Assembly: GCA_947629815.1 (NCBI GenBank)
Contig: CANRFG010000003.1
Span: forward strand, 7,148 to 71,147
Direction: 5' to 3'
DNA from: an uncultured Bacilli bacterium
GTDB lineage: Bacteria > Bacillota_I > Bacilli_A > RF39 > UBA660
Length of the DNA stretch: 64,000 bases
How positions within the stretch are numbered: the stretch's first letter is position 1; each line of letters opens with the position of its first letter. The position numbers and the translations under genes are program-made. Of this stretch, positions 32,463-47,251 are shown in pieces. The notes beneath the pieces are model-generated. The model saw only the letters and a program-made list of their open reading frames with translations. It was not told the origin of the DNA and searched no databases.

Positions 32463-33677
32463 ATGAAAATTAAAGTTGGAATAATTTTTGGAGGAGACAC
32501 AGTTGAACATGAAGTAAGTGTTATTTCTGCAATTCAAGCAATGAATCATATTGACCAAGAAAAGTACGAAGTAGTACCTATATATATTACAAAAGAAAAA
32601 ATTTGGTATACAGGTAAAATGCTTATGGATATTGAAATATATAAAGATATGGATTTATTAAAAAGATACGCTTCAAAAGTTACTTTATGTAAAAGAGAAG
32701 ATGGATTTTATTTAATAAAAACAAATGGAATGTTTAGAAAAGATGTAGAACAATTAGATATTGCATTTCCAATAGTACATGGAAATAATGTAGAAGATGG
32801 AACTTTACAAGGTTACTTAGATACAATAGGAATACCTTATGTAGGTAGTAAAGTAATAGGTTCTGCTATAGGTCAAGATAAGGTTATTATGAAACAAATA
32901 TTTGAATCTGTTGGATTATCTGTTGTTCCATATACTTGGTTTTATGATACAGAATATATGAATGATTCTGAAACAATTTTAAAAAATATTCAAAAACTAA
33001 AATATCCTGTAATTGTAAAACCAGCTAATTTAGGTAGTAGTGTAGGTATTAAATTTGTTGATTCTAAAGAAAAAATAGAAGAAGCGATAATGGAAGCAAT
33101 TAAATATGATACTAAAATAGTTGTAGAAAAAGTTGTTAGTGATATGATAGAAGTTAATTGTTCTGTACTTGGAAATTATGAACATCAAACTACTAGTGAA
33201 ATAGAAGAAGTTATGAGTACAAAAGAATTTTTAACATATGCTGATAAATATATTGGTTCTTCTAAAGTAAAAGGAAAAATAAATATGGGTTCTAAAGGTA
33301 TGGCAAGCGCAAAAAGAATAATACCTGCCCGTATTACAAAGGAAGAAAAAACAAAAGTTATTGAATATTCAAAAGAAGTATTTAGAGCGTTAAATTTAAG
33401 TGGTGTTTGTAGAATAGATTTTATGATTGATAAAAAAGATAAAAAGGTTTATGTAAATGAACCAAATACAATACCAGGTTCTTTATCTTTCTATTTATGG
33501 GAACCAATTGGAAAAAGTTATACTGAACTTTTAGATGAAATGATAACTTTAGCTATTAAAGATTATAAAAATAGAAGTAAAAAAGTTTCATCTTTTGAAA
33601 CAAACATATTAAGTAATTTTAATGGTACAAAAGGTGTTAAAGGTTTAAAAGGAATTAAAGGATTAAAAAGGGGCTGA
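32463..33677 (+). CDS. ddl: D-alanine--D-alanine ligase; its last codons and stop lie inside the IS element
   Basis: N-terminus MKIKVGIIFGGDTVEHEVSV. ATP-grasp fold. RBS AAGGAG precedes the ATG at 32463. The reading frame runs into the IS left inverted repeat (..KRG stop). Confidence 0.85.
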   Translation: MKIKVGIIFGGDTVEHEVSVISAIQAMNHIDQEKYEVVPIYITKEKIWYTGKMLMDIEIYKDMDLLKRYASKVTLCKREDGFYLIKTNGMFRKDVEQLDIAFPIVHGNNVEDGTLQGYLDTIGIPYVGSKVIGSAIGQDKVIMKQIFESVGLSVVPYTWFYDTEYMNDSETILKNIQKLKYPVIVKPANLGSSVGIKFVDSKEKIEEAIMEAIKYDTKIVVEKVVSDMIEVNCSVLGNYEHQTTSEIEEVMSTKEFLTYADKYIGSSKVKGKINMGSKGMASAKRIIPARITKEEKTKVIEYSKEVFRALNLSGVCRIDFMIDKKDKKVYVNEPNTIPGSLSFYLWEPIGKSYTELLDEMITLAIKDYKNRSKKVSSFETNILSNFNGTKGVKGLKGIKGLKRG

Positions 33678-35411
33678 GTAGAAATGAATAATTTCTATTC
33701 AGTTCTTTTTTTGCTTTGGAAAAGGAAATTTTTCGAAGTTTAAATTGTTTGGTGTATCCCAATAATTACCTTTTAATTTATTGCCATCTAAAGTAGAAAA
33801 ATATTTTCTTATGTTGGCACCTAAGCACATAAGCATAATCTCACAAGAAACTTTATTTAAACCTCGTCTTCTTATTCTATCATAATTCATATTATTTTTT
33901 ATTTGTCCAAATGCACCTTCTACTTGGATGCTTCTGTTTATTCTTATTTCTATTCCTCTTGGACTTTGTAAATTTTTTCTAGCTTCTTCTTTTAATAATT
34001 CATATTCTGGTACTAGTTCATATAATCTATAATCGTAGCTTTTATTTTTTAAGTTTTTCTTACAGACATAAGAATAATTACAATTGTTACAACCAACAAA
34101 TTTATAAAGTTTACTATTTTTATATCTTTGATGTCTAATACCATCAAATGATATTTCTTCTCCGATACAAGTATTTAAACACATAACTCCATCATTAAAA
34201 GTATAAAATAATTGGGGCCTTTTTCCATCAGCTTCACCACTCCATGTAGAATGTTTAACGTAATTTTTTATATTGTGATTTTTCATATATTGATAATTTT
34301 CATACATTCCATATCCTGAATCTGCACATTCATTTTTAGGATATTCTTCATAATATTTATAATATAGGTCATTCATTGGGATAAAAGTATAGAAATCATC
34401 TCGATTTTGAAATACTCCATACATTGTTATTAACCCACTTGATACCATTACTTGTATATTATATCCTGCATGAAAATCATGACTGCTTTTTGAATAATAA
34501 TCTTCCTTTAATACCATCGCAGTGGCATCTTTATCAGTTTTGTAATAAGAATTCCTATTTTCACCACATATTGTTTCTTTTTCTTCGTATTCAAGTAACT
34601 TGATTAAATATTGATAAGCTAATTTATAATTTCTTTGTTCTTTAGTTAATCGTTTACCTTTACCCGTGGGAATAGAATTAATATCTATATTTTCTCTTAC
34701 AACATACTCTTTTATTAGCTCATTTAACTCAAATGATTTTATTTTATTTTTTATTTCAATTCCCATTTTAAGTAATAGTTCTTTAATCTTAATATCTAAT
34801 TTTTTATGGTAAGTAGTTGGCTTCCATACAAATTTATATTTATTCGCATTTGCTTCTATTTTTGTTCCATCATTATATTGAATATCTATATTAACATTAA
34901 GATCTTCTATAATTGCTTTTGTAATCATAGTAAATATTTCATATTGATAAGGGACTATATATTTATTAATGCAATCCTTTATTGAACTGTCACTTGGTTG
35001 TTGTTGTTCCATTAAATAAATAACTCTTAAATCAAATTGACATAGATTTTCTATTTCTCGTAAACTACCTTTAAATTTTGAAAAACAATAAATAATAGTT
35101 GCAATTAAATTAAATGGATTGTATCCTTTTCTTCCAACGTCACTTTGAACGTTTTTTATTATCAATCCTATTCCTGAGTTATTCAAAATTTCAAGGAATT
35201 TATCAATTTTATCAAATTCCTCACAGCATTTCACTGAGGGGACTATGAAAATTGGTCTTTTTGTGTTAAAATATCCCATGTGATACATCTTCTTTCGTCA
35301 ATTAGATTGTATCACGAATTGGTCTTGAAGTCTTATGATTTCAGGACTTTTTATTTTTTGGAATAAATTAAAAAAGAACTGAATAGAAATTATTCATTTC
35401 TACTCAGCCCC
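33670..35411 (-). mobile_element. IS1182-family insertion sequence, copy 1 (1742 bp)
   Basis: Perfect roughly 36-bp terminal inverted repeats: GGGGCTGAGTAGAAATGAATAATTTCTATTCAGTTC at the left and its reverse complement at the right. No clear target-site duplication. The flanks ttaaaaa|IS|tttttaa look palindromic. Confidence 0.8.
33699..35288 (-). CDS. IS1182-family transposase (DUF772 N-terminal domain plus DDE domain)
   Basis: 529 aa. The block GRKGYNPFNLIATIIYCFSKFKGSLREIENLCQFDLRVIYL fits the DUF772 pattern. Identical to the ORF at 39048..40637. Confidence 0.75.
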   Translation of the reverse strand: MYHMGYFNTKRPIFIVPSVKCCEEFDKIDKFLEILNNSGIGLIIKNVQSDVGRKGYNPFNLIATIIYCFSKFKGSLREIENLCQFDLRVIYLMEQQQPSDSSIKDCINKYIVPYQYEIFTMITKAIIEDLNVNIDIQYNDGTKIEANANKYKFVWKPTTYHKKLDIKIKELLLKMGIEIKNKIKSFELNELIKEYVVRENIDINSIPTGKGKRLTKEQRNYKLAYQYLIKLLEYEEKETICGENRNSYYKTDKDATAMVLKEDYYSKSSHDFHAGYNIQVMVSSGLITMYGVFQNRDDFYTFIPMNDLYYKYYEEYPKNECADSGYGMYENYQYMKNHNIKNYVKHSTWSGEADGKRPQLFYTFNDGVMCLNTCIGEEISFDGIRHQRYKNSKLYKFVGCNNCNYSYVCKKNLKNKSYDYRLYELVPEYELLKEEARKNLQSPRGIEIRINRSIQVEGAFGQIKNNMNYDRIRRRGLNKVSCEIMLMCLGANIRKYFSTLDGNKLKGNYWDTPNNLNFEKFPFPKQKKN

Positions 35412-35470
35412 TTTTTAAGTATCAGTTGATTTTAAATTTGAGTGGTGTATAATATTTTTGGTGGTATTAA

Positions 35471-36646: not shown

Positions 36647-36689
36647 GGACTGTTAGCTCAGTTGGTAGAGCAACTGACTCTTAATCAGT
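36647..36689 (+). other. 5' half of a second tRNA-Lys gene (acceptor, D-arm and anticodon stem-loop), truncated after the anticodon stem; attL-side core ACTGACTCTTAATCAGT at 36673-36689
   Basis: GGACTGTTAGCTCAGTTGGTAGAGCAACTGACTCTTAATCAGT is followed by non-tRNA sequence. Its matching 3' half lies at 47219-47251. Confidence 0.65.
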
Positions 36690-36716
36690 TGCTCGTGCTA
36701 AAAGGCACAAAAATAT

Positions 36717-36792
36717 GGACCGTTAGCTCAGTTGGTAGAGCAATCGACTCTTAATCGATGGGTCTAGGGTTCGAATCCCTAACGGTCCACCA
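36717..36792 (+). tRNA. tRNA-Lys (anticodon CTT), intact
   Basis: Acceptor GGACCGT/ACGGTCC. Anticodon stem ATCGA/TCGAT with loop CTCTTAA. T-arm TAGGG TTCGAAT CCCTA. CCA present. Confidence 0.85.
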
Positions 36793-37086: not shown

Positions 37087-37347
37087 ATGAACGAACAAGA
37101 TTTTGAAAATTTAAAAGATTTAAGGTTTACTATTACCGAAGAAATGAAAGACACAATAATTGAAACTGCATTTACTAACCAAATACTTGACGAGTGCGAA
37201 CTATCGAAAAAAGATAGAAAACTTTTGAAAAAGCACGCCGAAAAATTAAAACGAAAATTTGCGTTAGATTTACAAGCACACAACCAAGTACAAGTACAAA
37301 TTATTCGTGCCTATATAAGTGGTAAAAAAGAGATAGACCAAAAATAA
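37087..37347 (+). CDS. hypothetical protein (element cargo)
   Basis: 86-aa ORF with a GGAG RBS. Charged and helical. Confidence 0.4.
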   Translation: MNEQDFENLKDLRFTITEEMKDTIIETAFTNQILDECELSKKDRKLLKKHAEKLKRKFALDLQAHNQVQVQIIRAYISGKKEIDQK

Positions 37348-37362
37348 AGTTTATCTCTTTTC

Positions 37363-38013
37363 TTATTCTAAATTTATACTATCAATAAATTCAATACTTT
37401 TCATTTCTTCATAAATTTGTTCTTGTGTCTTTCTTTTTTCTTCCATTATTCTTGCTTTCAATTCGCTACTACTTAATTGAGAGTGTTCGTTTGTATAATT
37501 AAATTTTGAATTTTCAAATAATTTAAAAATTTTAGTTGGTACTCGTTTATCGTGGGTGGCAATAAAAGGGTTTAATATAAAATTGTTGCCTCTACCTGTA
37601 ATCGCGGGTACTTTTTTTATAATTTCTTCATTTTCAAGTTGTTTAATTCCGTCCCTAAAAGATGTATCACTACATAAAGTTAAGGCTTGTATTTCCTTAC
37701 TATTCATAAACCCGTCAAAATGTTTATTTTTCATTTTTATAATAAAGCCACTATATGTACCCCAACCAAGAGAGGAAAGCATAACCATTAAAATATCGTA
37801 TGAACTTTTTGTTAAATTACATTGTGCTATCATACGAAAAGGCAAGTCCATTGACTTATTAAATTTTTTACCTTTGTTTATTTCTTTTGTCTTGCTTAAA
37901 TATTCTATTGTTTTAGCACTAATTATGTAAAACCTATCGTTTCTATTTAGATAAGTTGTTTCTCCTGTTTCCAAGTTGGCTAGAACTCTTGTATAATCTT
38001 CATAGTTTATCAC
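37363..38013 (-). CDS. RepL-like Firmicute plasmid replication protein
   Basis: C-terminal block KVPAITGRGNNFILNPFIATHDKR resembles RepL (..RKTGVLMLNPELLMRGDD..). GTG start with AGGGGGT RBS. Palindromic sites ACGAAAATTCGT x2 lie just upstream (38036-38079). Confidence 0.55.
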   Translation of the reverse strand: MINYEDYTRVLANLETGETTYLNRNDRFYIISAKTIEYLSKTKEINKGKKFNKSMDLPFRMIAQCNLTKSSYDILMVMLSSLGWGTYSGFIIKMKNKHFDGFMNSKEIQALTLCSDTSFRDGIKQLENEEIIKKVPAITGRGNNFILNPFIATHDKRVPTKIFKLFENSKFNYTNEHSQLSSSELKARIMEEKRKTQEQIYEEMKSIEFIDSINLE

Positions 38014-38160
38014 ATATCTTAACCCCCTATAAGAGCGAAAATTCGTGGTCGAAAAAGTAGTTTACCCACGAAAATTCGTACCCATTAAAAACTCAATTTT
38101 TCTTTTAAATAAAGGCTAAAAGAGATGTTTATTGCATTTCTTCTTTTATTGTTCTAGTAT

Positions 38161-38517
38161 TTAATCAATTTTACAATAATCTCTATTAGCATTGTAGCAA
38201 CAAGTAGGACAATTTCTTTCAAAGCCTTGATACTCTAAAGCCCTATAAAACTTTTCCCCAAATATACCTTGCCCTCGTGCAAGTTTTTGTATTTCTTCTT
38301 GTATAACTTGACGGACAATTTTTTCGATGTATAAGTCTTGCTCGTCCTTTTGTAGTGGGTAGGAAAAAGTCTTTTTTCTTTCTTCCTTTTCCTTACTTTC
38401 TTTTTCCCATTGTTCCATAAGTTTTAAGATGTCATATTCTATCGTTTGTTCGAAAACCTTTTCAATATCTTGCAAGTCGAAGATGTCCTCAAAACCTATC
38501 TTGTCAGTTTGTTTCAT
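38161..38517 (-). CDS. hypothetical protein with C-terminal Cys cluster (CPTCCYNANRDYC)
   Basis: 118-aa ORF with an acidic N-terminus. No motif recognised. Confidence 0.4.
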   Translation of the reverse strand: MKQTDKIGFEDIFDLQDIEKVFEQTIEYDILKLMEQWEKESKEKEERKKTFSYPLQKDEQDLYIEKIVRQVIQEEIQKLARGQGIFGEKFYRALEYQGFERNCPTCCYNANRDYCKID

Positions 38518-38585
38518 ATATAACCCTCCATATAGATTTTTTCTTTCATTGTCATTTTATAAAGTGTTGCTAGTCGTTGTTAAGA

Positions 38586-38750
38586 TTAGACTTTTTTATT
38601 TTCGATGTATTCTTTTAAAGTGCTTTCACTAACTAGATAACGATTAGCAACTCTAAAAGCCTCGAGTTTATGTTCTCGTATTAACTTTTGAATAGTCTTA
38701 ACATTAACCCCAAGAATACAACTTATTTCCTTTGTTGTGTAAAATTTCAT
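38586..38750 (-). CDS. excisionase/MerR-superfamily HTH DNA-binding protein (54 aa; not in the ORF track)
   Basis: Reverse-strand translation MKFYTTKEISCILGVNVKTIQKLIREHKLEAFRVANRYLVSESTLKEYIENKKV. The TKEISxxLGVSxxTIxxLIRExKL pattern is typical of Xis-family HTH proteins. Confidence 0.5.
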   Translation of the reverse strand: MKFYTTKEISCILGVNVKTIQKLIREHKLEAFRVANRYLVSESTLKEYIENKKV

Positions 38751-39018
38751 ATACACACACCTCCTTTAATCTAAAGAGTAGTGATTTAACTACCCCTTAC
38801 TTAAAAGAGAATAAATGCAACTAAAAATACACAAAACATACCTTACTTATCTAGTGCAAACAAAAGAGGCATTTATAAGCACATAAAAAGCCCCTTATAT
38901 TCGCATATAAAAGGCTTATAGCAAAGATTTACAAGCAAGCAATAAAAAGATACATCTAAAACCAAACATCTTGTATCGTGCAAGTATTCCAGCTTGAAAT
39001 CTATTGACAATATAAAAA

Positions 39019-40760
39019 GGGGCTGAGTAGAAATGAATAATTTCTATTCAGTTCTTTTTTTGCTTTGGAAAAGGAAATTTTTCGAAGTTTAAATTGTTTG
39101 GTGTATCCCAATAATTACCTTTTAATTTATTGCCATCTAAAGTAGAAAAATATTTTCTTATGTTGGCACCTAAGCACATAAGCATAATCTCACAAGAAAC
39201 TTTATTTAAACCTCGTCTTCTTATTCTATCATAATTCATATTATTTTTTATTTGTCCAAATGCACCTTCTACTTGGATGCTTCTGTTTATTCTTATTTCT
39301 ATTCCTCTTGGACTTTGTAAATTTTTTCTAGCTTCTTCTTTTAATAATTCATATTCTGGTACTAGTTCATATAATCTATAATCGTAGCTTTTATTTTTTA
39401 AGTTTTTCTTACAGACATAAGAATAATTACAATTGTTACAACCAACAAATTTATAAAGTTTACTATTTTTATATCTTTGATGTCTAATACCATCAAATGA
39501 TATTTCTTCTCCGATACAAGTATTTAAACACATAACTCCATCATTAAAAGTATAAAATAATTGGGGCCTTTTTCCATCAGCTTCACCACTCCATGTAGAA
39601 TGTTTAACGTAATTTTTTATATTGTGATTTTTCATATATTGATAATTTTCATACATTCCATATCCTGAATCTGCACATTCATTTTTAGGATATTCTTCAT
39701 AATATTTATAATATAGGTCATTCATTGGGATAAAAGTATAGAAATCATCTCGATTTTGAAATACTCCATACATTGTTATTAACCCACTTGATACCATTAC
39801 TTGTATATTATATCCTGCATGAAAATCATGACTGCTTTTTGAATAATAATCTTCCTTTAATACCATCGCAGTGGCATCTTTATCAGTTTTGTAATAAGAA
39901 TTCCTATTTTCACCACATATTGTTTCTTTTTCTTCGTATTCAAGTAACTTGATTAAATATTGATAAGCTAATTTATAATTTCTTTGTTCTTTAGTTAATC
40001 GTTTACCTTTACCCGTGGGAATAGAATTAATATCTATATTTTCTCTTACAACATACTCTTTTATTAGCTCATTTAACTCAAATGATTTTATTTTATTTTT
40101 TATTTCAATTCCCATTTTAAGTAATAGTTCTTTAATCTTAATATCTAATTTTTTATGGTAAGTAGTTGGCTTCCATACAAATTTATATTTATTCGCATTT
40201 GCTTCTATTTTTGTTCCATCATTATATTGAATATCTATATTAACATTAAGATCTTCTATAATTGCTTTTGTAATCATAGTAAATATTTCATATTGATAAG
40301 GGACTATATATTTATTAATGCAATCCTTTATTGAACTGTCACTTGGTTGTTGTTGTTCCATTAAATAAATAACTCTTAAATCAAATTGACATAGATTTTC
40401 TATTTCTCGTAAACTACCTTTAAATTTTGAAAAACAATAAATAATAGTTGCAATTAAATTAAATGGATTGTATCCTTTTCTTCCAACGTCACTTTGAACG
40501 TTTTTTATTATCAATCCTATTCCTGAGTTATTCAAAATTTCAAGGAATTTATCAATTTTATCAAATTCCTCACAGCATTTCACTGAGGGGACTATGAAAA
40601 TTGGTCTTTTTGTGTTAAAATATCCCATGTGATACATCTTCTTTCGTCAATTAGATTGTATCACGAATTGGTCTTGAAGTCTTATGATTTCAGGACTTTT
40701 TATTTTTTGGAATAAATTAAAAAAGAACTGAATAGAAATTATTCATTTCTACTCAGCCCC
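39019..40760 (-). mobile_element. IS1182-family insertion sequence, copy 2 (identical to copy 1, same orientation), nested inside the integrative element
   Basis: Same inverted repeats as copy 1 and an identical 529-aa transposase ORF at 39048..40637. Confidence 0.8.
39048..40637 (-). CDS. IS1182-family transposase (copy 2)
   Basis: Identical translation to the ORF at 33699..35288. Confidence 0.75.
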   Translation of the reverse strand: MYHMGYFNTKRPIFIVPSVKCCEEFDKIDKFLEILNNSGIGLIIKNVQSDVGRKGYNPFNLIATIIYCFSKFKGSLREIENLCQFDLRVIYLMEQQQPSDSSIKDCINKYIVPYQYEIFTMITKAIIEDLNVNIDIQYNDGTKIEANANKYKFVWKPTTYHKKLDIKIKELLLKMGIEIKNKIKSFELNELIKEYVVRENIDINSIPTGKGKRLTKEQRNYKLAYQYLIKLLEYEEKETICGENRNSYYKTDKDATAMVLKEDYYSKSSHDFHAGYNIQVMVSSGLITMYGVFQNRDDFYTFIPMNDLYYKYYEEYPKNECADSGYGMYENYQYMKNHNIKNYVKHSTWSGEADGKRPQLFYTFNDGVMCLNTCIGEEISFDGIRHQRYKNSKLYKFVGCNNCNYSYVCKKNLKNKSYDYRLYELVPEYELLKEEARKNLQSPRGIEIRINRSIQVEGAFGQIKNNMNYDRIRRRGLNKVSCEIMLMCLGANIRKYFSTLDGNKLKGNYWDTPNNLNFEKFPFPKQKKN

Positions 40761-40854
40761 TTAATTATTGCTATATATCGCTCGTACGAGGGGGTATAGT
40801 TTAGTAATTTGTACTTGACTTTTCAAAAAATCGGTCGCCACCTCGTATATTGAT

Positions 40855-41397
40855 TTAGTCAGTTCTATAATATTGTTTAAGGCTTCCGTCAGTATCGTCC
40901 CTCTCATATAGTTCGTCATAATCATTATTGTATTGAAAATGCTCGTGAAAATCAGTATCTTCTTCCATATACAAGAAAATATCATTATCCTCATTTGCAT
41001 AAACATCTATTTTTCCTTTGTAAGAGTATTTAAAATCGTCATTACCTTGATAAATAAAACCACTTGTTTTTTTAAATGTTTTGTTTTCAGAAAAAGTTAT
41101 AATATCATAACTTATGCCACCATTTGTTTTTGATGTTTTTCTATATTCCCAAGTCCCAACAATTTTATCAAGTAGTTTTTCCTCTTGTTTATGCTTTATA
41201 CTTTCCGTAAACAAAATAAATGATACTATGCCAACTATAAATACCGAAATAACACTAATAATCGGCACAATAATTTTAAAAGCCTTTGACTTTTCTTTTT
41301 TTGCTTTTTCTTTTTTATAAACAAAACCACAATGAGGACATCGCTTTGCACTATCACTTATTTCTTTGCCACACTCTTTACATTTAATTAGAGCCAT
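40855..41397 (-). CDS. zinc-ribbon domain membrane protein, paralog 3 (with C-terminal soluble domain)
   Basis: N-terminus MALIKCKECGKEISDSAKRCPHCG (CxxC...CxxC), one TM helix, then a roughly 110-aa extracytoplasmic domain. Confidence 0.55.
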   Translation of the reverse strand: MALIKCKECGKEISDSAKRCPHCGFVYKKEKAKKEKSKAFKIIVPIISVISVFIVGIVSFILFTESIKHKQEEKLLDKIVGTWEYRKTSKTNGGISYDIITFSENKTFKKTSGFIYQGNDDFKYSYKGKIDVYANEDNDIFLYMEEDTDFHEHFQYNNDYDELYERDDTDGSLKQYYRTD

Positions 41398-41839
41398 TTT
41401 TTTCGCTCCTTAAAACCATTAAATATAATAAAATATAAATTGTATAATTATTGATAAAATCCATCAATACTTTTAATATTCCATAGTATTTAAGAGTAAA
41501 ACCAAGTTGTAAAAAAATATATGTAATCATATTTATTGTCAAAACAATTCCTACTACGATTTTTAAAATTGGCAATTTCATTTTAGCCATAAAGAAAATT
41601 AACCATAAAATTGCAATGTTAGTAATATTATAAATTGTTTGTATTGTTAAAGGGAAAATACTAGGTATCATACAAAGGGTATAAAGGCTCAATAAAATTA
41701 TTATTCCTATATCTATATTGCTAATTTTTCCTTTTTTCTTTTCAATTCTTTTTGTTTTTATTTCAATACCACAATGAGGGCAAGTTTTTAATGTATCACT
41801 CATTTCTTTGCCACACTCGGTACACTTAATTAAAGCCAT
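41384..41839 (-). CDS. zinc-ribbon domain membrane protein, paralog 2 (4 TM)
   Basis: N-terminus MALIKCTECGKEMSDTLKTCPHCG, followed by a polytopic membrane region. Overlaps paralog 3 by 14 nt. Confidence 0.55.
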   Translation of the reverse strand: MALIKCTECGKEMSDTLKTCPHCGIEIKTKRIEKKKGKISNIDIGIIILLSLYTLCMIPSIFPLTIQTIYNITNIAILWLIFFMAKMKLPILKIVVGIVLTINMITYIFLQLGFTLKYYGILKVLMDFINNYTIYILLYLMVLRSEKNGSN

Positions 41840-41854
41840 TTTTTGCTCCTTTCT

Positions 41855-41941
41855 TTATTTCTTCTTATTTAGAATAATAGCAACTATAATACCAACAACT
41901 ATTGCTACTACTACACAAATTAAAATTGGTAAAAACATCAT
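41855..41941 (-). CDS. 28-aa hydrophobic peptide ORF with strong RBS (MMFLPILICVVVAIVVGIIVAIILNKKK)
   Basis: AAGGAG RBS sits 7 nt upstream of the ATG on the minus strand. A single TM helix with a KKK tail. Lies between zinc-ribbon paralogs 1 and 2. Confidence 0.3.
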   Translation of the reverse strand: MMFLPILICVVVAIVVGIIVAIILNKKK

Positions 41942-41956
41942 ATAAAATCACTCTCC

Positions 41957-42361
41957 TTAATATGTTGAATATATAATTATCCACAAAAAGCCTATGAATA
42001 AAAAGACACTACTTATTATGACGGAAATAAGCCCCATTGTTTTAGCACTATTTTGTTTTCCTTTATTTGAATTTAAAACAATGATACCTAAAACTAAACT
42101 AACTATTGATGTGATACCAAAGAACGAACATATAAGAGAGGCTAAAGCCATATTGTAATTTTCGCCTCTTTCGTCAGTTGTCTTATTGTTGCTATTAGTT
42201 TGAAAAGCATACCCACAATTAGGACACATTGTTGCTTTACGACTTAATTGTTTATCACACTCAGGGCAAAACATTATATTGTTTTCAACACCACAATTAG
42301 GGCATATTTTTGCGTGGTCGCTCATTTCTTTTCCACACTCATTGCACTTAATCATTGCCAT
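41957..42361 (-). CDS. double zinc-ribbon membrane protein, paralog 1 (DUF4190-like C-terminus)
   Basis: N-terminus MAMIKCNECGKEMSDHAKICPNCG, then a second ribbon CPECD...CPNCG, then two TM helices. Confidence 0.55.
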   Translation of the reverse strand: MAMIKCNECGKEMSDHAKICPNCGVENNIMFCPECDKQLSRKATMCPNCGYAFQTNSNNKTTDERGENYNMALASLICSFFGITSIVSLVLGIIVLNSNKGKQNSAKTMGLISVIISSVFLFIGFLWIIIYSTY

Positions 42362-42472
42362 ACATAAAACCTCCTTTCTTCCACATCTCTATTATAACAC
42401 ATTTTATCTACGAACGATAGATAAAGAAAGCCGATTTTTCTTGAGATAATTATATAGAGAGGTGGTGAGGCT

Positions 42473-42724
42473 ATGACGGACAACAAAAAAGACGAAAACT
42501 ATATCTATTATATTATCGGTCAAAATTTGAAAAGACTACGAAAAGAAAAAGGCTTTACCCAAGAAAAACTTGCCGAGGCGAGCAATTATGCTTTAAGTTT
42601 TATTGGCAATTTAGAAAGTGATAAAGTGTTTCAAACGGCTTCCGTTGGTAGCCTTTACCATATAGCCAAGATTTTAAAAATCGATATAAGAGAGTTATTC
42701 GTCCCAATAGACGAAAATAAGTAG
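42473..42724 (+). CDS. XRE-family HTH regulator divergent from the zinc-ribbon operon
   Basis: Reads IGQNLKRLRKEKGFTQEKLAEASNY. Confidence 0.65.
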   Translation: MTDNKKDENYIYYIIGQNLKRLRKEKGFTQEKLAEASNYALSFIGNLESDKVFQTASVGSLYHIAKILKIDIRELFVPIDENK

Positions 42725-42849: not shown

Positions 42850-43593
42850 TTATTTAGTGCTAGCCTTTAAGTATTGCTCGATGTCAAACTTATCAATGTT
42901 TTTGACATCTATTTTTTTATAGTTATTTATTAGAAAATCTTTGACTATTCCAACAAACTCATTTTTTGCATTTTCATTATCATTAAATAAAAAGTTCCAG
43001 TCGTTTGTGTATTCTTCGTCATATAGGTATTTGAATATAGAAAAGCCAATACTTTCTTTCGTTTCGTGATAGATATATTTTTTTACAAGTTGCATTGTGT
43101 TATTTGTCATAAGACTTGTTTCTTTTTCTTTGCTTTCAGTATCATAGATTATTATTTTATCTTTGCTTAATTCTTCGAGCATAGGTACAATATATTTGTT
43201 TATATAATCATTTACTTTTGTATTATAAGTAAATTGTTTTATAACACTTTCTCTTATTCTATTTGCTATATCTTTTTTAAGTTTAACATCTCCCTTATCT
43301 AAAAAGCCAATTTCTTCGTCCTTTAACATATTAGGGGCTTTGTTTTCTTCGTTTACTTGTGCGAATAATATTGTCATATCTACTGCCGAAGATGTCATAT
43401 TTTGCGAGTAGATTATTTCTTCTTTTTTATTTGTTGTTCCTATTAAATCATAAATATTTATTTTAGGCATTATATAAGTATTAACAAAATCATTGGCTTT
43501 ATTTATAAGTGTTTGTTCTTCACTTGTGTTTTTTCGATTCTTTGCTCTTGTTTGATTTTCTTCGTTTAATTTTTTAATAACATTTATTGCCAT
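42850..43593 (-). CDS. hypothetical protein (element cargo; second gene of a two-gene operon)
   Basis: 247 aa. No recognisable motif. Its start abuts the stop of the upstream 372-aa ORF. Confidence 0.45.
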   Translation of the reverse strand: MAINVIKKLNEENQTRAKNRKNTSEEQTLINKANDFVNTYIMPKINIYDLIGTTNKKEEIIYSQNMTSSAVDMTILFAQVNEENKAPNMLKDEEIGFLDKGDVKLKKDIANRIRESVIKQFTYNTKVNDYINKYIVPMLEELSKDKIIIYDTESKEKETSLMTNNTMQLVKKYIYHETKESIGFSIFKYLYDEEYTNDWNFLFNDNENAKNEFVGIVKDFLINNYKKIDVKNIDKFDIEQYLKASTK

Positions 43594-43594
43594 A

Positions 43595-44713
43595 CTAACT
43601 CAACCTTTCGTATAGATTTTTATTTCTTTCAATAATTGCTTGTACTTTATCAAAAGCCTTTTTAAAATTGGCTTGCTTTTGTTCTTCCGTTTCAGTTTGT
43701 AAAACTACCAATTCATAAGCCTCTTTTAAATCAATAACTATTTTATTGATAAGCATATTACTTGCTATTGCTTTTATGTTTCCGTCAATTATATCTTTCA
43801 TTGTAGTTATAAAGTAGTAATAATCAAACTTGTTTATGTAGTCGGTCATTTCAATATTGTATGCTATTTCTTTAGGTAGTTGTTCCGTTAGTTTTTGACT
43901 AACTAAAATAATTAAATCTAAAAACTTTTCGCTATTCTTTTTGAATAAGTCATTATCTTTAATATCAAGATGTAATAAAGAAAGATAGGCTTTGTAGTAT
44001 TCTTCAGGACTAGATTTTTCGCTTAAATCAAACTCAATAGGCTCTTTATCATATAAAGTTTTTACGATGCCATTATTTGCATAGGCTACCAAGTCGTAAA
44101 TAAAGCCTATATATTGCATTTCTTCCTTTGTTAAGTCAATTCCATAGGTATTAACAAAATCACTCTTATATTGGCTTTTAAAAGCCTTATAATCGGTATA
44201 TAAATTATTAAATTTACTTATAAATATTTTGTAGTTGCTATCTTTGTTTTTTTCGTATTCAATACCACCTTTTACAACACTATCAAAACCGATATTTTCT
44301 AGTTGTTGCATTTCTTCTTCAATTTCAATTTTAAAAGTATCTATATATTTATCGTTATAAGATAATTTTTCATACCAAGCAATAAACTTGTTATATAAAA
44401 TTCTCGTGTTGCTATCGATTAAAGCCTTTAATGTCCTTACACTATATTTGTTTCGGTCGTCGTCCTCGCTTTTATAAATTATCTTTTCAAGTATTATTTG
44501 TATTTCGTCTTGTTTTTCCTTTTTGCTTTTATTACTATCGGCAAAAAGTATGTTATTTATTATTATAAGAGTTTTATATACATCTAGCATTATATCGTAT
44601 TGCTCTTTGTATTCTTTTCTAAAATCAGTTATGCCGAGTTCTCGTTCTATTGTATTTATATACTTGCTATTGCGAAAAATATCGTCATTTAAAGTATTAT
44701 GTCTTTTTCCCAT
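43595..44713 (-). CDS. hypothetical protein (element cargo; first gene of a two-gene operon)
   Basis: 372 aa, all-helical composition. No recognisable motif. Confidence 0.45.
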   Translation of the reverse strand: MGKRHNTLNDDIFRNSKYINTIERELGITDFRKEYKEQYDIMLDVYKTLIIINNILFADSNKSKKEKQDEIQIILEKIIYKSEDDDRNKYSVRTLKALIDSNTRILYNKFIAWYEKLSYNDKYIDTFKIEIEEEMQQLENIGFDSVVKGGIEYEKNKDSNYKIFISKFNNLYTDYKAFKSQYKSDFVNTYGIDLTKEEMQYIGFIYDLVAYANNGIVKTLYDKEPIEFDLSEKSSPEEYYKAYLSLLHLDIKDNDLFKKNSEKFLDLIILVSQKLTEQLPKEIAYNIEMTDYINKFDYYYFITTMKDIIDGNIKAIASNMLINKIVIDLKEAYELVVLQTETEEQKQANFKKAFDKVQAIIERNKNLYERLS

Positions 44714-45639: not shown

Positions 45640-45837
45640 ATGACAAAAGAAATTTGTAATTTAAAAGATTTATCAAACTATTTAAAAATATCTATTTCGG
45701 AAATTAGAAAGTTAGTACGAGAAAGAAAAATACCACATTTTAGAATCGGCAATCGTATTATGTTTGATTTAAAAAGTATAAATACTTGGCTTGAAAATTT
45801 ACAAGAAAAAGAAAGCAAAACATCTCTATTTTACTAG
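45640..45837 (+). CDS. xis: excisionase / AlpA-family HTH protein
   Basis: 65 aa with the HTH LSNYLKISISEIRKLVRERKIPHFRIGNRIMF. Lies immediately upstream of the integrase gene. Confidence 0.6.
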   Translation: MTKEICNLKDLSNYLKISISEIRKLVRERKIPHFRIGNRIMFDLKSINTWLENLQEKESKTSLFY

Positions 45838-45909
45838 GAAAAATAAGAAAAATATGATATAATTATAAGTAGATAGAGATTGTTTTATCAAATGTTAGGA
45901 GGAAAGAAA

Positions 45910-47025
45910 ATGATAAAACAACTATCAAAAAATAAATATAAAATAATAGCAGAAATTGGCTACACTATGGACGGCAAAAGAAAAAGAAAAACGGAAATTT
46001 TTGAGGGTACTAAAAAGCAAGCCGAAACAAGAGAATTTGAAATTAAGCAACAATATTCTAAAAAAGGCTTTATTACTGATAGTAAAAATTTAACCTTTGA
46101 AGATTATGGAAAAATTTTCATTAAGCATTATTGCGAAGGAAATATTGGTGCTAAAACTATGGACGGCTATCTATCAATGCTAGAAAAAATCAATTCGTAT
46201 CTAGGAAATTGGCAATTAAAAAGTATCGAAACATTTACTTTAACACAACTATATAAGAAATTAAAAAAAGGTACTAGAAAAGATGTTGTTACCAATAACA
46301 CTTTATTGCATTATTACAATCTTATCAATTTAATGTTTACACAAGCAGTTAAGTGGAATTTTATTGATAGCAACCCAAATTCAAATATTCCTAGACCAAA
46401 GAAAGAAAAACATCTAGCCGAGTGTTACGATATCGACCAAATACATACATTATTAAATGGCTTAACAAACGAGTGCTTAAAATATCAAGCCTTAATTATT
46501 CTAGCCATTGACTCGGGAGCAAGGAGGAGCGAGATATTGGCTCTTACTTGGAAAGATATTGATTTTGATACCAAAGTATTAACTATCAATAAATCACTAG
46601 ATGTTATTAGAGGCGAGTTTATAGAAAAAGCAACAAAAAATGATACATCAACAAGAAAAATGGTATTAACTGATACCACTATAAATGTATTAAAAGCCTA
46701 TCGTGAAGAATTAAAAACATCTAATACTTGGAAAGAAACAAACAAATTATTTCTAGCAAAAGACGGAAAACCTATGTACCCAACAACTTGTGGCAAAATT
46801 TTTCAAAAAGTAGCCGTTAAAAATGGACTACCTAAAATTAACTTTCACTCATTAAGACATAGTTCGGCAAGTTTACAAATTGCTTTAGGTGTTCACACAA
46901 AATTGATACAAGAAAGAATGGGGCATTCTTCTATGGCAGTTACAACAAGTATTTACTCACATATTTTTCAAGCCAATAGGACGGAGGTTGCTAACAAGTT
47001 AAATGGTGCTTTATCACTCAATTAG
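45910..47025 (+). CDS. int: site-specific tyrosine recombinase (phage-type integrase)
   Basis: C-terminal catalytic region ARRSEILAL...HSLRHSSASL...HSSMAVTTSIYSH (R..H..R/H..Y). AGGAGG RBS at 45897 precedes the ATG at 45910. Confidence 0.9.
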   Translation: MIKQLSKNKYKIIAEIGYTMDGKRKRKTEIFEGTKKQAETREFEIKQQYSKKGFITDSKNLTFEDYGKIFIKHYCEGNIGAKTMDGYLSMLEKINSYLGNWQLKSIETFTLTQLYKKLKKGTRKDVVTNNTLLHYYNLINLMFTQAVKWNFIDSNPNSNIPRPKKEKHLAECYDIDQIHTLLNGLTNECLKYQALIILAIDSGARRSEILALTWKDIDFDTKVLTINKSLDVIRGEFIEKATKNDTSTRKMVLTDTTINVLKAYREELKTSNTWKETNKLFLAKDGKPMYPTTCGKIFQKVAVKNGLPKINFHSLRHSSASLQIALGVHTKLIQERMGHSSMAVTTSIYSHIFQANRTEVANKLNGALSLN

Positions 47026-47201: not shown

Positions 47202-47251
47202 ACTGACTCTTAATCAGTGGGTCTAGGGTTCGAATCCCTAACAGTCCACCA
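47202..47251 (+). other. attR: 17-bp core plus the 3' half of the split tRNA-Lys (variable loop, T-arm, acceptor ACAGTCC, CCA)
   Basis: cactgactcttaatcagtgggtctagggttcgaatccctaacagtccacca. The 54-bp region is an imperfect direct repeat (2 mismatches) of 36746-36798. Confidence 0.65.

What the first reader, a model, noticed from the sequence alone, without database searches (positions are those of the whole stretch)
40855..42724. Operon of three tandem paralogous zinc-ribbon membrane proteins plus a 28-aa hydrophobic peptide, with a divergent XRE regulator, inside the integrative element
Three consecutive minus-strand genes all begin MA(L/M)IKC.ECGKE(I/M)SD..K.CP.CG, a CxxC..CxxC zinc ribbon. 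Their membrane or extracytoplasmic parts then differ: two TM helices with a DUF4190-like tail, four TM helices, and one TM helix plus a roughly 110-aa soluble domain. A strongly RBS-preceded 28-aa single-TM peptide (MMFLPILICVVVAIVVGIIVAIILNKKK) sits between the first and second. Paralogs 2 and 3 overlap by 14 nt, indicating coupled translation. A divergent XRE-family repressor gene (42473..42724) faces the operon. Tandem diversified membrane proteins plus a small hydrophobic peptide on a mobile element suggest superinfection exclusion, abortive infection or a holin-like function. I know of no described system with this composition.
Basis: partly seen in the sequence, partly recalled or inferred. 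Interest (0 to 1): 0.55.

Follow-up and report, generated by a model that had tools for sequence, protein, structure and literature searches.

The report
Regulated zinc-ribbon membrane-protein operon on mobile element
A small mobile DNA element in an uncultured gut bacterium carries a switch-controlled operon of three membrane proteins that share only a zinc-binding N-terminal cap, plus a conserved 28-residue membrane peptide; the protein type is common and poorly understood, and nothing here shows what it does.

Summary
Three consecutive minus-strand genes begin with the same CX2CX10CX2C zinc ribbon (about 75% DNA identity over the first 88 nt) and are unrelated beyond it. A 28-aa single-TM ORF lies between the first two and is conserved in three diverged relatives. 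A divergent 83-aa XRE gene faces the operon across a conserved palindrome next to an extended -10.

The locus sits in a ~10.5-kb element integrated at tRNA-Lys. The element family is abundant in uncultured low-GC gut Bacilli: its 372-aa backbone protein has 390 unannotated relatives. The slot beside XRE always holds ribbon-membrane genes, numbering one to five.

The ribbon-TM-ectodomain architecture (PF13240/PF13248/PF12773) is widespread, often tandem, and often chromosomal. The Lactococcus lactis llmg_0524-0525-0526 operon has the same layout, proven zinc binding and a cell-wall phenotype.

There is no homology to known exclusion, abortive-infection, defence or holin proteins, and a crude test found no defence-gene enrichment near such arrays.

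Best reading: an XRE-gated cargo operon of envelope-acting proteins. Which envelope function it serves is unresolved. This is a new variant of a known but obscure kind, of moderate-low interest.

The parts
42473..42724 (+). XRE-family HTH regulator, 83 aa, HTH domain only, divergent from the array
   Evidence: Pfam HTH_19 1.3e-9 and HTH_3 3.3e-8. It resembles R-M control proteins and CapH in PADLOC. It is 80% identical in L009.
42403..42425 (.). Candidate operator: perfect palindrome TTTATCTA-N7-TAGATAAA in the 111-nt XRE/ZnR-A intergenic region
   Evidence: It is the only perfect copy in the 64-kb window. It occurs exactly once per element, at the same place, in eight related loci. The half-sites are invariant while the flanks diverge.
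42391..42399 (-). Extended -10 (TGTTATAAT) of the array promoter, immediately downstream of the palindrome
   Evidence: Read from the sequence. TATAAT is invariant in L009, L004 and L007. The role as a promoter is inferred.
41957..42361 (-). ZnR-A: double zinc ribbon plus a 2-TM hairpin (DUF4190-like); the most conserved protein of the element
   Evidence: Pfam DZR 37.3 bits, Zn_Ribbon_1 41.9 bits, DUF4190 24.6 bits (below the cut-off of 35). It is 79-82% identical in L009, L091 and L092, against 36-56% for the p372/p247 backbone proteins.
41855..41941 (-). 28-aa single-TM peptide MMFLPILICVVVAIVVGIIVAIILNKKK
   Evidence: AAGGAGAG ribosome-binding site 11 nt upstream. The ORF is conserved in L009 and L091, with synonymous changes, and has decayed in L092.
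41384..41839 (-). ZnR-B: single ribbon plus 3-4 TM segments
   Evidence: Pfam Zn_Ribbon_1 26.3 bits. There are only about 8 full-length relatives. The three whose contigs I examined directly (P0212, P0211, and the window's own protein) lie in this element family.
40855..41397 (-). ZnR-C: single ribbon, one TM helix, and a ~100-aa eight-stranded beta-barrel ectodomain; overlaps ZnR-B by 14 nt
   Evidence: Pfam. AF2 model with pLDDT 86. Weak but consistent lipocalin-like fold matches: 3lhn with TM 0.62-0.64, ToxS/VtrC, the NlpE N-domain, and phage lipoproteins. About 10 full-length relatives.
39013..40762 (-). IS1182-family insertion sequence directly downstream of ZnR-C; not part of the module
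   Evidence: NCBIfam transpos_IS1182 2.9e-60. It has a 100% identical second copy at 33663-35418. It is absent from L004, L006 and L007. It replaces a 22-nt terminator palindrome found in L004.
36673..36689 (.). attL core ACTGACTCTTAATCAGT (anticodon stem-loop of the split host tRNA-Lys)
47202..47218 (.). attR core, identical 17 nt, followed by the host tRNA 3' half up to 47251
45880..47025 (+). Tyrosine integrase of the element (preceded by a 65-aa HTH_17 ORF at 45640..45837)
   Evidence: Pfam Phage_integrase 1.1e-25. HTH_17 was annotated on the identical gene in L001.
42850..44713 (-). Backbone genes p247 (42850..43593) and p372 (43595..44713), function unknown, convergent with XRE
   Evidence: No Pfam, NCBIfam, phage or plasmid match, and only one marginal PHROG hit of unknown function for p372. 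The p372 family has 390 clusters. The AF2 model is helical with no PDB match.
37087..38756 (-). Downstream backbone genes: HTH_17 of 54-56 aa (38586..38756), p118 (38161..38517), p216 (37363..38013), and an 86-aa gene on the + strand (37087..37347)
   Evidence: Syntenic in all family members. The 188-aa protein at the p216 position in L091 has a weak HTH_36 hit.

Best explanation
This is a self-contained, XRE-gated cargo operon of envelope-acting membrane proteins. It is carried in a fixed slot of a widespread family of small tRNA-integrating elements of uncultured low-GC gut Bacilli.

Shown:
- Each protein starts with a CX2CX10CX2C ribbon of the PF13240 type.
- A Lys-rich linker and TM segments follow, so the ribbon should be cytoplasmic and the variable part should lie in or beyond the membrane.
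- ZnR-C displays a small lipocalin-like beta-barrel outside the cell.
- The operon has its own promoter region, with one conserved palindrome, and its own terminators.

Inferred:
- The ribbon is a structural Zn(Cys)4 cap and anchor, as measured for the L. lactis proteins, rather than a catalytic or DNA-binding unit. The variable membrane and ecto parts would do the work.
- The 28-aa peptide is an accessory single-pass subunit, probably of ZnR-A or ZnR-B.
- XRE binds the palindrome, which lies immediately upstream of the array's -10, and limits expression.
- The module changes or guards the host envelope to the element's benefit. Exclusion of incoming phage or rival elements is the leading sub-hypothesis. 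Plain envelope-integrity support is close behind.

The array grows and shrinks by recombination between the conserved ribbon-coding 5' ends.
For: Zinc binding, membrane location and a cell-wall phenotype were shown for same-family ribbon proteins in an operon of the same layout (PMC4628341).

The transcription unit is self-contained. The palindrome and -10 are conserved where the flanks diverge, and the palindrome is unique in the window and occurs once per element. In the IS-free L004, two strong hairpin terminators lie between ZnR-C and the next gene (four terminator-like sites against 0.1 expected).

The slot is fixed but its content varies. All ten family loci tabulated have at least one ribbon-TM gene between XRE and HTH_17, and the number ranges from one to five.

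Recombination at the ribbons is supported by 3-gene and 5-gene arrays in near-identical elements, and by a hybrid 5' junction in L007.

Purifying selection is indicated by ZnR-A at 80% identity against 37-55% for p372/p247, and by conservation of the peptide ORF.

Phage genomes encode the same ribbon-TM architecture, including one PHROG filed under 'moron ... membrane protein'. The ZnR-C barrel resembles phage 'lipoproteins'.
Against: No homology links any of the four products to a protein of known exclusion or defence function. The element has no recognisable phage genes, so the classical prophage exclusion logic does not transfer directly.

Tandem ribbon arrays elsewhere are flanked by a mixture of housekeeping and mobile genes. 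A crude near-versus-far PADLOC comparison shows no defence enrichment.

Sequence divergence of ZnR-B and ZnR-C equals that of the backbone, so there is no arms-race signal.

The array sits at the promoter that XRE would repress. That fits a gene set kept low or off better than one that is constitutively protective.

Fold matches for the ectodomain are weak (E about 0.01).
Confidence: 0.4

Rival explanations
1. Ordinary envelope-homeostasis proteins that happen to ride on a mobile element. Like Llmg_0524/0526, TcaA, YdjG or ZnR-PspC, they would support cell-wall or membrane integrity or stress tolerance, with no role in conflict with phages or other elements.
For: Every ribbon-TM protein with experimental or contextual data points to the envelope: PMC4628341, weak TcaA-type N-terminal similarity, and ZnR-PspC and YdjG in PSP contexts. 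Many arrays sit among housekeeping genes. ZnR-A is under strong purifying selection. No defence enrichment was found.
Against: The ZnR-B and ZnR-C families were found only in this element family. Gene content in the slot changes quickly between near-identical elements, which is unusual for a housekeeping function. A dedicated repressor with a private operator suggests that expression is costly.
Confidence: 0.25
2. Membrane-tethered signalling. The ectodomains or TM bundles would sense an extracellular or envelope cue, and the shared cytoplasmic ribbon would relay it. The relay could work by binding DNA or RNA, or by sequestering the small XRE protein. This would tune the module itself or induction of the element.
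For: A published hypothesis proposes this for the same architecture (PMC3355149). The ZnR-C barrel resembles the ToxS/VtrC and NlpE sensory domains. A divergent XRE sits next to ribbon genes in at least nine loci outside this family, and HTH_3 is the most frequent neighbouring family. One shared ribbon on diverse bodies fits a common cytoplasmic partner.
Against: A ribbon of about 25 residues is small for specific DNA binding. The operator occurs only at the module's own promoter, so there is no visible link to excision or replication genes. In L. lactis the Zn site was stable and judged structural rather than a sensor. The fold matches are weak.
Confidence: 0.1
3. Membrane-damaging toxin, abortive-infection or holin-like set, kept silent by XRE. 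Once derepressed, the multi-TM ZnR-B and/or the 28-aa peptide would depolarise or permeabilise the membrane. That would kill the cell or act as an addiction module.
For: The 28-aa peptide has the size and shape of small hydrophobic toxins. The promoter is tightly placed next to a repressor's operator. The XRE resembles R-M control proteins and CapH. Two distant ribbon pairs sit inside or beside defence loci: a type I R-M operon, and a SMODS gene.
Against: The peptide is an internal cistron with its own ribosome-binding site, not a stand-alone toxin gene, and no antisense or regulatory RNA family was detected. It has been lost without loss of the rest in L092. The element has no endolysin or sensor component. 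There is no PADLOC hit. ZnR-C has a folded ectodomain, which is unlike a pore former.
Confidence: 0.1
4. Part of the element's own transfer or maintenance machinery. This could be a membrane platform for DNA export or uptake, entry exclusion against sister elements, or anchoring of the excised element.
For: Ribbon-TM genes are present in every family member examined, next to the same backbone genes. ZnR-A is the best-conserved protein of the element. The element has no recognisable transfer genes, so unknown proteins must provide or exploit transfer.
Against: The content of the slot is not constant, and ZnR-A, ZnR-B and ZnR-C are replaced by other ribbon proteins in L014, L016, L044 and L067. 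The same architecture is common outside mobile DNA. The module is transcriptionally separate from the HTH_17/p118/p216 genes.
Confidence: 0.1

Closest known systems
Lactococcus lactis llmg_0524-llmg_0525-llmg_0526 operon (Roussel et al. 2015, PMC4628341)
   Same: It has two membrane proteins, each with an N-terminal cytoplasmic CX2CX10CX2C motif, both in PF13240. One has 2 TM segments and the other has 1 TM segment plus an ectodomain. A short hydrophobic protein is encoded between them. All three genes form one operon. Zinc binding and membrane location were shown experimentally.
   Different: It is chromosomal and was not reported as mobile. No adjacent XRE was described. The intervening protein is 64 aa rather than 28 aa. 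The membrane and ecto parts are unrelated to ZnR-A, ZnR-B and ZnR-C, and Llmg_0524 carries DUF6574. It has two ribbon genes rather than three to five.
Generic PF13240/PF13248/PF12773 'zinc-ribbon domain-containing' membrane proteins (such as the ribbon-TM-YARHG proteins, PMC3355149; ZnR-PspC and YdjG, PMC11237479; TcaA)
   Same: They share the N-terminal ribbon or ribbons, a TM segment and a variable extracytoplasmic or multi-TM part. They are very common in Firmicutes and are frequently tandem.
   Different: No function is established for the class. The trio's body domains form small lineage-specific families. TcaA membership fails outright (18-24 bits against a cut-off of 550).
Prophage superinfection-exclusion proteins of Gram-positive phages (Sie2009 and Ltp type; from my own knowledge, not tested here)
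   Same: They are small N-in/C-out membrane-anchored proteins encoded beside the repressor on an integrated element.
   Different: There is no sequence or family match. Here the element has no phage genes, and the genes are divergent from the regulator rather than co-transcribed with it. No phenotype is known.
C-protein (controller) or CapH-type XRE regulators of R-M and CBASS loci
   Same: They are HTH-only XRE proteins of about 80 aa that act on a palindrome at their own locus to limit expression of a potentially costly cargo (PADLOC similarity).
   Different: The cargo here is a set of membrane proteins rather than a nuclease or cyclase. Binding is untested.

Membership tests
Pfam PF13240 Zn_Ribbon_1 (with PF13248 and PF12773 DZR) | HMM score at or above the gathering cut-off (25 bits; DZR 27.3 bits) | tested here: met
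   ZnR-A scores 41.9 bits (DZR 37.3), ZnR-B 26.3 bits and ZnR-C 31.0 bits.
Pfam PF13240 Zn_Ribbon_1 (with PF13248 and PF12773 DZR) | Four Cys arranged as CX2C-X10-CX2C | tested here: met
   C6, C9, C20 and C23 are present in all three proteins and invariant across the family alignment A1.
Pfam PF13828 DUF4190 | HMM score at or above the gathering cut-off (35 bits) | tested here: not met
   ZnR-A scores 24.6 bits (E 2.1e-5, residues 71-125). It is DUF4190-like only.
Llmg_0524-0526-type zinc membrane protein operon | Two or more membrane proteins with an N-terminal CX2CX10CX2C motif encoded in one operon | tested here: met
   Operon status is inferred from a single promoter region, gaps of 15 nt, a 14-nt overlap and downstream terminators.
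Llmg_0524-0526-type zinc membrane protein operon | A short hydrophobic protein encoded between the ribbon genes | tested here: met
   The 28-aa ORF at 41855..41941 is conserved in L009 and L091. In L. lactis the equivalent is 64 aa.
Llmg_0524-0526-type zinc membrane protein operon | Homology beyond the ribbon (orthology) | tested here: not met
   BLASTP aligns only the ribbons, plus one low-identity (20%) stretch. Llmg_0524 carries DUF6574, which is absent here.
Llmg_0524-0526-type zinc membrane protein operon | The ribbon binds zinc and the proteins are in the membrane | not testable with these tools
   This needs metal analysis and fractionation. It was shown only for the L. lactis proteins.
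TcaA (NCBIfam NF053815) | Equivalog score at or above 550 bits | tested here: not met
   Scores are 18-24 bits, on the N-terminal ribbon and TM only.
Known anti-phage defence systems (PADLOC-DB 2.0) | A match of any array protein to a defence-system model | tested here: not met
   There are no hits for ZnR-A, ZnR-B, ZnR-C or the peptide at E <= 0.01. Only XRE hits regulator models.
Prophage superinfection-exclusion proteins | Encoded in the lysogeny module of a prophage | tested here: not met
   The element has no protein with an informative PHROG match other than the regulator. The backbone protein is absent from the phage collection and IMG/VR.
Prophage superinfection-exclusion proteins | Blocks phage adsorption or DNA entry | not testable with these tools
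   This requires plaque, adsorption or injection assays.
Holin / lysis cassette | A small TM protein adjacent to an endolysin | tested here: not met
   The element has no muramidase, amidase or peptidase domain.
Type I toxin-antitoxin small hydrophobic toxin (for the 28-aa ORF) | A stand-alone toxin gene with an overlapping antisense RNA | tested here: inconclusive
   The ORF is an internal cistron, 15 nt from each neighbour and with its own ribosome-binding site. No Rfam family matches there, but an undescribed antisense RNA cannot be excluded.
tRNA-integrating genomic island / integrative element | A site-specific recombinase plus direct repeats derived from a tRNA gene at both ends | tested here: met
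   Integrase. A 17-nt identical core and a 56-nt repeat at 95% identity. Relatives abut tRNA-Leu or tRNA-Arg and carry Tyr or Ser recombinases.
tRNA-integrating genomic island / integrative element | An empty attB site in a related genome | tested here: inconclusive
   The intact host-type tRNA occurs in 41 metagenome contigs, but none shares the window's flanks.

The most novel reading that the evidence does not exclude
The ribbon would be a universal cytoplasmic docking head, and the array a recombination-shuffled cassette system of surface-exposed or membrane modules. In that reading, a mobile element uses the array as a new kind of diversifiable exclusion, immunity or sensing apparatus. 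New bodies would be swapped in behind a conserved ribbon-coding 5' end, much as polymorphic toxins swap C-terminal cassettes, and a private XRE controller would gate the whole array.
Probability: 0.12. Interest if true: 0.7.

Novelty: new variant of a known kind. Interest (0 to 1): 0.33.

Why it matters
N-terminal zinc-ribbon membrane proteins are among the commonest uncharacterised architectures in gut Firmicutes, and only one operon of this type has been studied at the bench. Here the same layout appears as a compact, separately regulated unit on a small mobile element, with natural 3-gene and 5-gene variants and a conserved micro-peptide. That makes it a convenient construct for finding out what the class does.

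As a by-product, the work outlines an abundant element family of uncultured low-GC gut Bacilli. Its backbone proteins match no known domain or fold. Its recombinase modules and tRNA targets are interchangeable.

Tried and rejected
1. Defence or exclusion homology. PADLOC gave no hit for the array proteins. PHROGs gave only families of unknown function, plus one generic 'membrane protein' moron family.

2. Phage or plasmid origin of the element. p372 has no tblastn match in the phage or plasmid collections or in IMG/VR. The few phage hits to ZnR-A cover the ribbon only, and the annotated records list only hypothetical proteins.

3. Backbone function. PDB sequence searches for p372 and p216 were empty or noise. 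The AF2 model of p372 is confident but has no Foldseek match.

4. Defence-island association of the class. Two anecdotal cases were found. However, Pfam and PADLOC tallies of 103 adjacent ORFs against 83 distal ORFs show no enrichment. The test is crude, because only family counts are returned.

5. Empty attB. The hybrid tRNA exists elsewhere but not with the window's flanks.

6. Alternative operators in elements with diverged XRE. Only short AT-rich palindromes were found, which is uninformative.

8. Chance or a non-coding artefact for the 28-aa ORF. I rejected this because of its conservation pattern.
Full report
**1. The observation**

On the minus strand lie:
- ZnR-A, 41957..42361, 134 aa
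- a 28-aa ORF, 41855..41941
- ZnR-B, 41384..41839, 151 aa
- ZnR-C, 40855..41397, 180 aa

An 83-aa XRE gene (42473..42724) diverges from them on the plus strand.

The three larger genes share about 75% nucleotide identity over their first 88 nt. Their first 29 residues are 71-75% identical, and nothing recognisable is shared beyond that. The shared part is a CX2CX10CX2C ribbon, and all three pass Pfam's own threshold for PF13240.

Three corrections to the description:
- ZnR-A carries two ribbons (PF12773).
- Its 2-TM tail is only DUF4190-like, at 24.6 bits against a cut-off of 35.
- ZnR-B has three to four TM segments.

ZnR-B and ZnR-C overlap by 14 nt. Every cistron, including the small one, has an AAGGAG-type ribosome-binding site.

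**2. The 28-aa ORF is a real gene**

In L009 and L091 the neighbouring ZnR-B is only 48-61% identical. The small ORF is nevertheless intact there, with the same length and the same C-terminal IIVAIILNKKK. Reading the two sequences codon by codon, the window and L009 differ by 8 synonymous and 9 non-synonymous changes. All replacements are hydrophobic, and there is no indel. In L092 the gene has decayed while its neighbours persist. It is therefore conserved but dispensable. No Rfam family overlaps it.

**3. Regulation and transcription unit**

The 111-nt intergenic region holds a perfect palindrome, TTTATCTA-N7-TAGATAAA (42403-42425). On the array strand it is followed immediately by an extended -10, TGTTATAAT. 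The half-sites, the -10 and both ribosome-binding sites are invariant in L009, L004 and L007, while the sequence between them diverges.

The perfect palindrome occurs once in the 64-kb window. It occurs once per element, always at this position, in eight related loci. XRE therefore looks like a private regulator of this module rather than the element's master switch. Binding itself is inferred, not shown.

In the IS-free copy L004, two strong hairpin terminators lie between ZnR-C and the next gene (four terminator-like sites against 0.1 expected). In the window an IS1182-family element sits exactly where the first 22-nt hairpin should be. It is identical to a second copy at 33663-35418.

**4. 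The element**

The locus lies in a ~10.5-kb insertion. It is bounded by a 17-nt identical core (36673-36689 and 47202-47218), which corresponds to the anticodon stem-loop of a tRNA-Lys(CTT). A tyrosine integrase lies at the right end.

The same backbone recurs in L009, L014, L016, L044, L067, L091, L092 and L094. Its order is: ~86 aa, ~60 aa, ~375 aa, ~240 aa, then XRE facing the other way, then the ribbon array, HTH_17, ~116 aa and ~190-215 aa. L016 comes from a closed 1.54-Mb MAG chromosome.

The recombinase is either a tyrosine integrase or a large serine recombinase. The adjacent tRNA is Lys, Leu or Arg.

The 372-aa backbone protein has 390 cluster-level relatives with no Pfam domain and no name. 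It has no match in phage or plasmid collections or in IMG/VR. Its confident helical AF2 model has no PDB neighbour. The element type is therefore unresolved; it could be a satellite, a mobilisable island or something else. The host is an uncultured low-GC gut 'Bacilli bacterium'.

**5. The slot**

In the ten family loci tabulated, the interval between XRE and HTH_17 contains at least one ribbon-TM gene, and the number ranges from one to five. These are mixed with other small membrane or secreted proteins. Examples:
- A + peptide + B + C in the window, L009 and L091
- 299 aa + 284 aa + A + peptide + B + C in L004 and L006, which are otherwise near-identical to the window
- five different genes in L094, including a ribbon-TM-thioredoxin protein and a fusion of a double ribbon, several TM segments and the ZnR-C ectodomain

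L007 has a hybrid junction: the 5' leader of the 299-aa gene joined to the body of ZnR-A. This indicates recurrent recombination within the conserved ribbon-coding 5' ends.

ZnR-A is the best-conserved protein of the element, at 79-82% identity against 36-56% for p372 and p247. ZnR-B and ZnR-C diverge at backbone rate. Gene content is therefore fluid, but the sequences are not hyper-variable.

**6. Structure**

AF2 models ZnR-C with pLDDT 86. The model has a ribbon at residues 1-25, a disordered Lys-rich linker, a long TM helix at 38-79 and an eight-stranded beta-barrel at 81-179.

Foldseek gives no significant match (best E about 0.01), but the list is coherent. It contains a small bacterial lipoprotein (3lhn, TM 0.62-0.64), the ToxS/VtrC sensory barrels, the NlpE N-domain, lipocalins and fatty-acid binders. 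In BFVD it contains phage 'lipoproteins'. I read the ectodomain as a lipocalin-like barrel, held with low confidence.

**7. How common the kind is**

Of these, 509 were confirmed as relatives, across Bacillota, Bacteroidota, Proteobacteria and other phyla.

Tandem arrays are frequent: nine genes in L010 and in L063, five in L040 and L062, and a recurrent ~237 + ~390-aa pair in many MAGs.

The 103 ORFs flanking such arrays fall in 98 Pfam families. Housekeeping genes (a class II tRNA synthetase, TIM, iPGM, DnaA) are mixed with mobile or defence genes (T4SS coupling protein, resolvase, HipA, AbiEii-like ATPase). HTH_3 is the commonest family.

Two sampled distant relatives sit inside a type I R-M operon or next to a SMODS gene. 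However, a near-versus-far PADLOC comparison shows no enrichment.

By contrast, full-length relatives of ZnR-B (about 8) and ZnR-C (about 10) are few, and every one whose context I could read lies in this element family.

**8. What is known**

The closest described system is the L. lactis llmg_0524-0525-0526 operon (PMC4628341). It encodes two membrane proteins with the same N-terminal CX2CX10CX2C motif, one with 2 TM and one with 1 TM plus a long ectodomain. A short hydrophobic protein is encoded between them, and all three genes are transcribed as one operon. Zinc binding by the motif was measured, and the Zn site was stable and judged structural. A mutant lacking the motif grew poorly and was lysozyme-resistant.

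I took the two sequences from the paper's supplement. Both pass PF13240, but they align with the trio only in the ribbon. The relationship is therefore a shared module and architecture, not orthology.

The same architecture was noted with YARHG ectodomains, where membrane-tethered signalling was proposed (PMC3355149). It was also noted in phage-shock contexts (PMC11237479). No paper in the searchable library links ribbon-TM proteins to exclusion or defence.

**9. Interpretation**

What is shown: a conserved, separately regulated operon of ribbon-anchored membrane proteins and a micro-peptide, in a fixed but variable slot of an abundant mobile-element family.

What is inferred: the ribbon is a cytoplasmic structural Zn cap, the variable parts act in or on the envelope, XRE limits expression through the palindrome, and the array evolves by recombination at the ribbons.

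I commit to an XRE-gated envelope-acting cargo module that benefits the element (confidence 0.4). Exclusion of incoming DNA is the leading sub-hypothesis. The rivals are:
- plain envelope homeostasis of the Llmg_0524 type (0.25)
- membrane-tethered signalling (0.1)
- a repressed membrane toxin, abortive-infection or holin-like set (0.1)
- a role in the element's own transfer or maintenance (0.1)

None can be excluded by computation.

**10. Verdict**

The composition is not unprecedented, and the proposed conflict functions have no positive evidence. The locus is a new variant of a known, functionally obscure kind. Interest is moderate-low (0.33). The main value lies in offering a compact experimental handle on a very common unknown protein class, and in exposing an unannotated element family.

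Noticed in passing
window 36647-36792 and 47202-47251: The host tRNA-Lys(CTT) appears split in its anticodon stem-loop by the element. The 5' half at 36647-36689 and the 3' half at 47202-47251 would together form a perfect cloverleaf. The element carries its own complete tRNA-Lys(CTT) at 36717-36792, 27 nt inside attL, with compensatory differences in both the acceptor and anticodon stems. The element may therefore replace the gene it disrupts. Rfam scores the remnant just above threshold (30.8 bits).
   Followed up: partly
window 33663-35418 and 39013-40762: There are two 100% identical IS1182-family copies in the same orientation. They bracket a PF00144 beta-lactamase-family gene, the tRNA/attL region and the left arm of the element, giving a composite-transposon-like arrangement. 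The second copy sits exactly where a 22-nt terminator palindrome lies in the IS-free relative L004.
   Followed up: partly
window 42850-44713 (p247, p372) and relatives: The element's two largest proteins have no Pfam or NCBIfam match, only one marginal PHROG hit of unknown function, and (for p372) no phage, plasmid or PDB match. The 372-aa protein has 390 cluster-level relatives. Its confident all-helical AF2 model has no structural neighbour in the PDB.
   Followed up: yes
L099 4693-5856 and L100 4837-6000: Two tandem ribbon-TM genes (199 and 182 aa) are inserted between hsdR and hsdM of a type I restriction-modification operon in another uncultured Bacilli genome.
   Followed up: no
L095 7001-10788: A 298-aa double-ribbon membrane protein lies next to DUF6602 and SMODS (nucleotidyltransferase) genes and a SHOCT protein. 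This is a possible signalling or defence neighbourhood.
   Followed up: no
L010 482-6532; L063 313-11068: Very long tandem arrays, each of nine consecutive genes starting with the same ribbon, occur in an uncultured Bacilli MAG and in a Prevotellaceae MAG. The L010 array is preceded by a divergent XRE gene.
   Followed up: no
L091 379-1932 versus window 45880-47025: Otherwise syntenic elements carry either a large serine recombinase or a tyrosine integrase. They abut different tRNA genes: Lys-CTT, Leu-GAG and Arg-CCT. This shows modular exchange of the integration module.
   Followed up: partly
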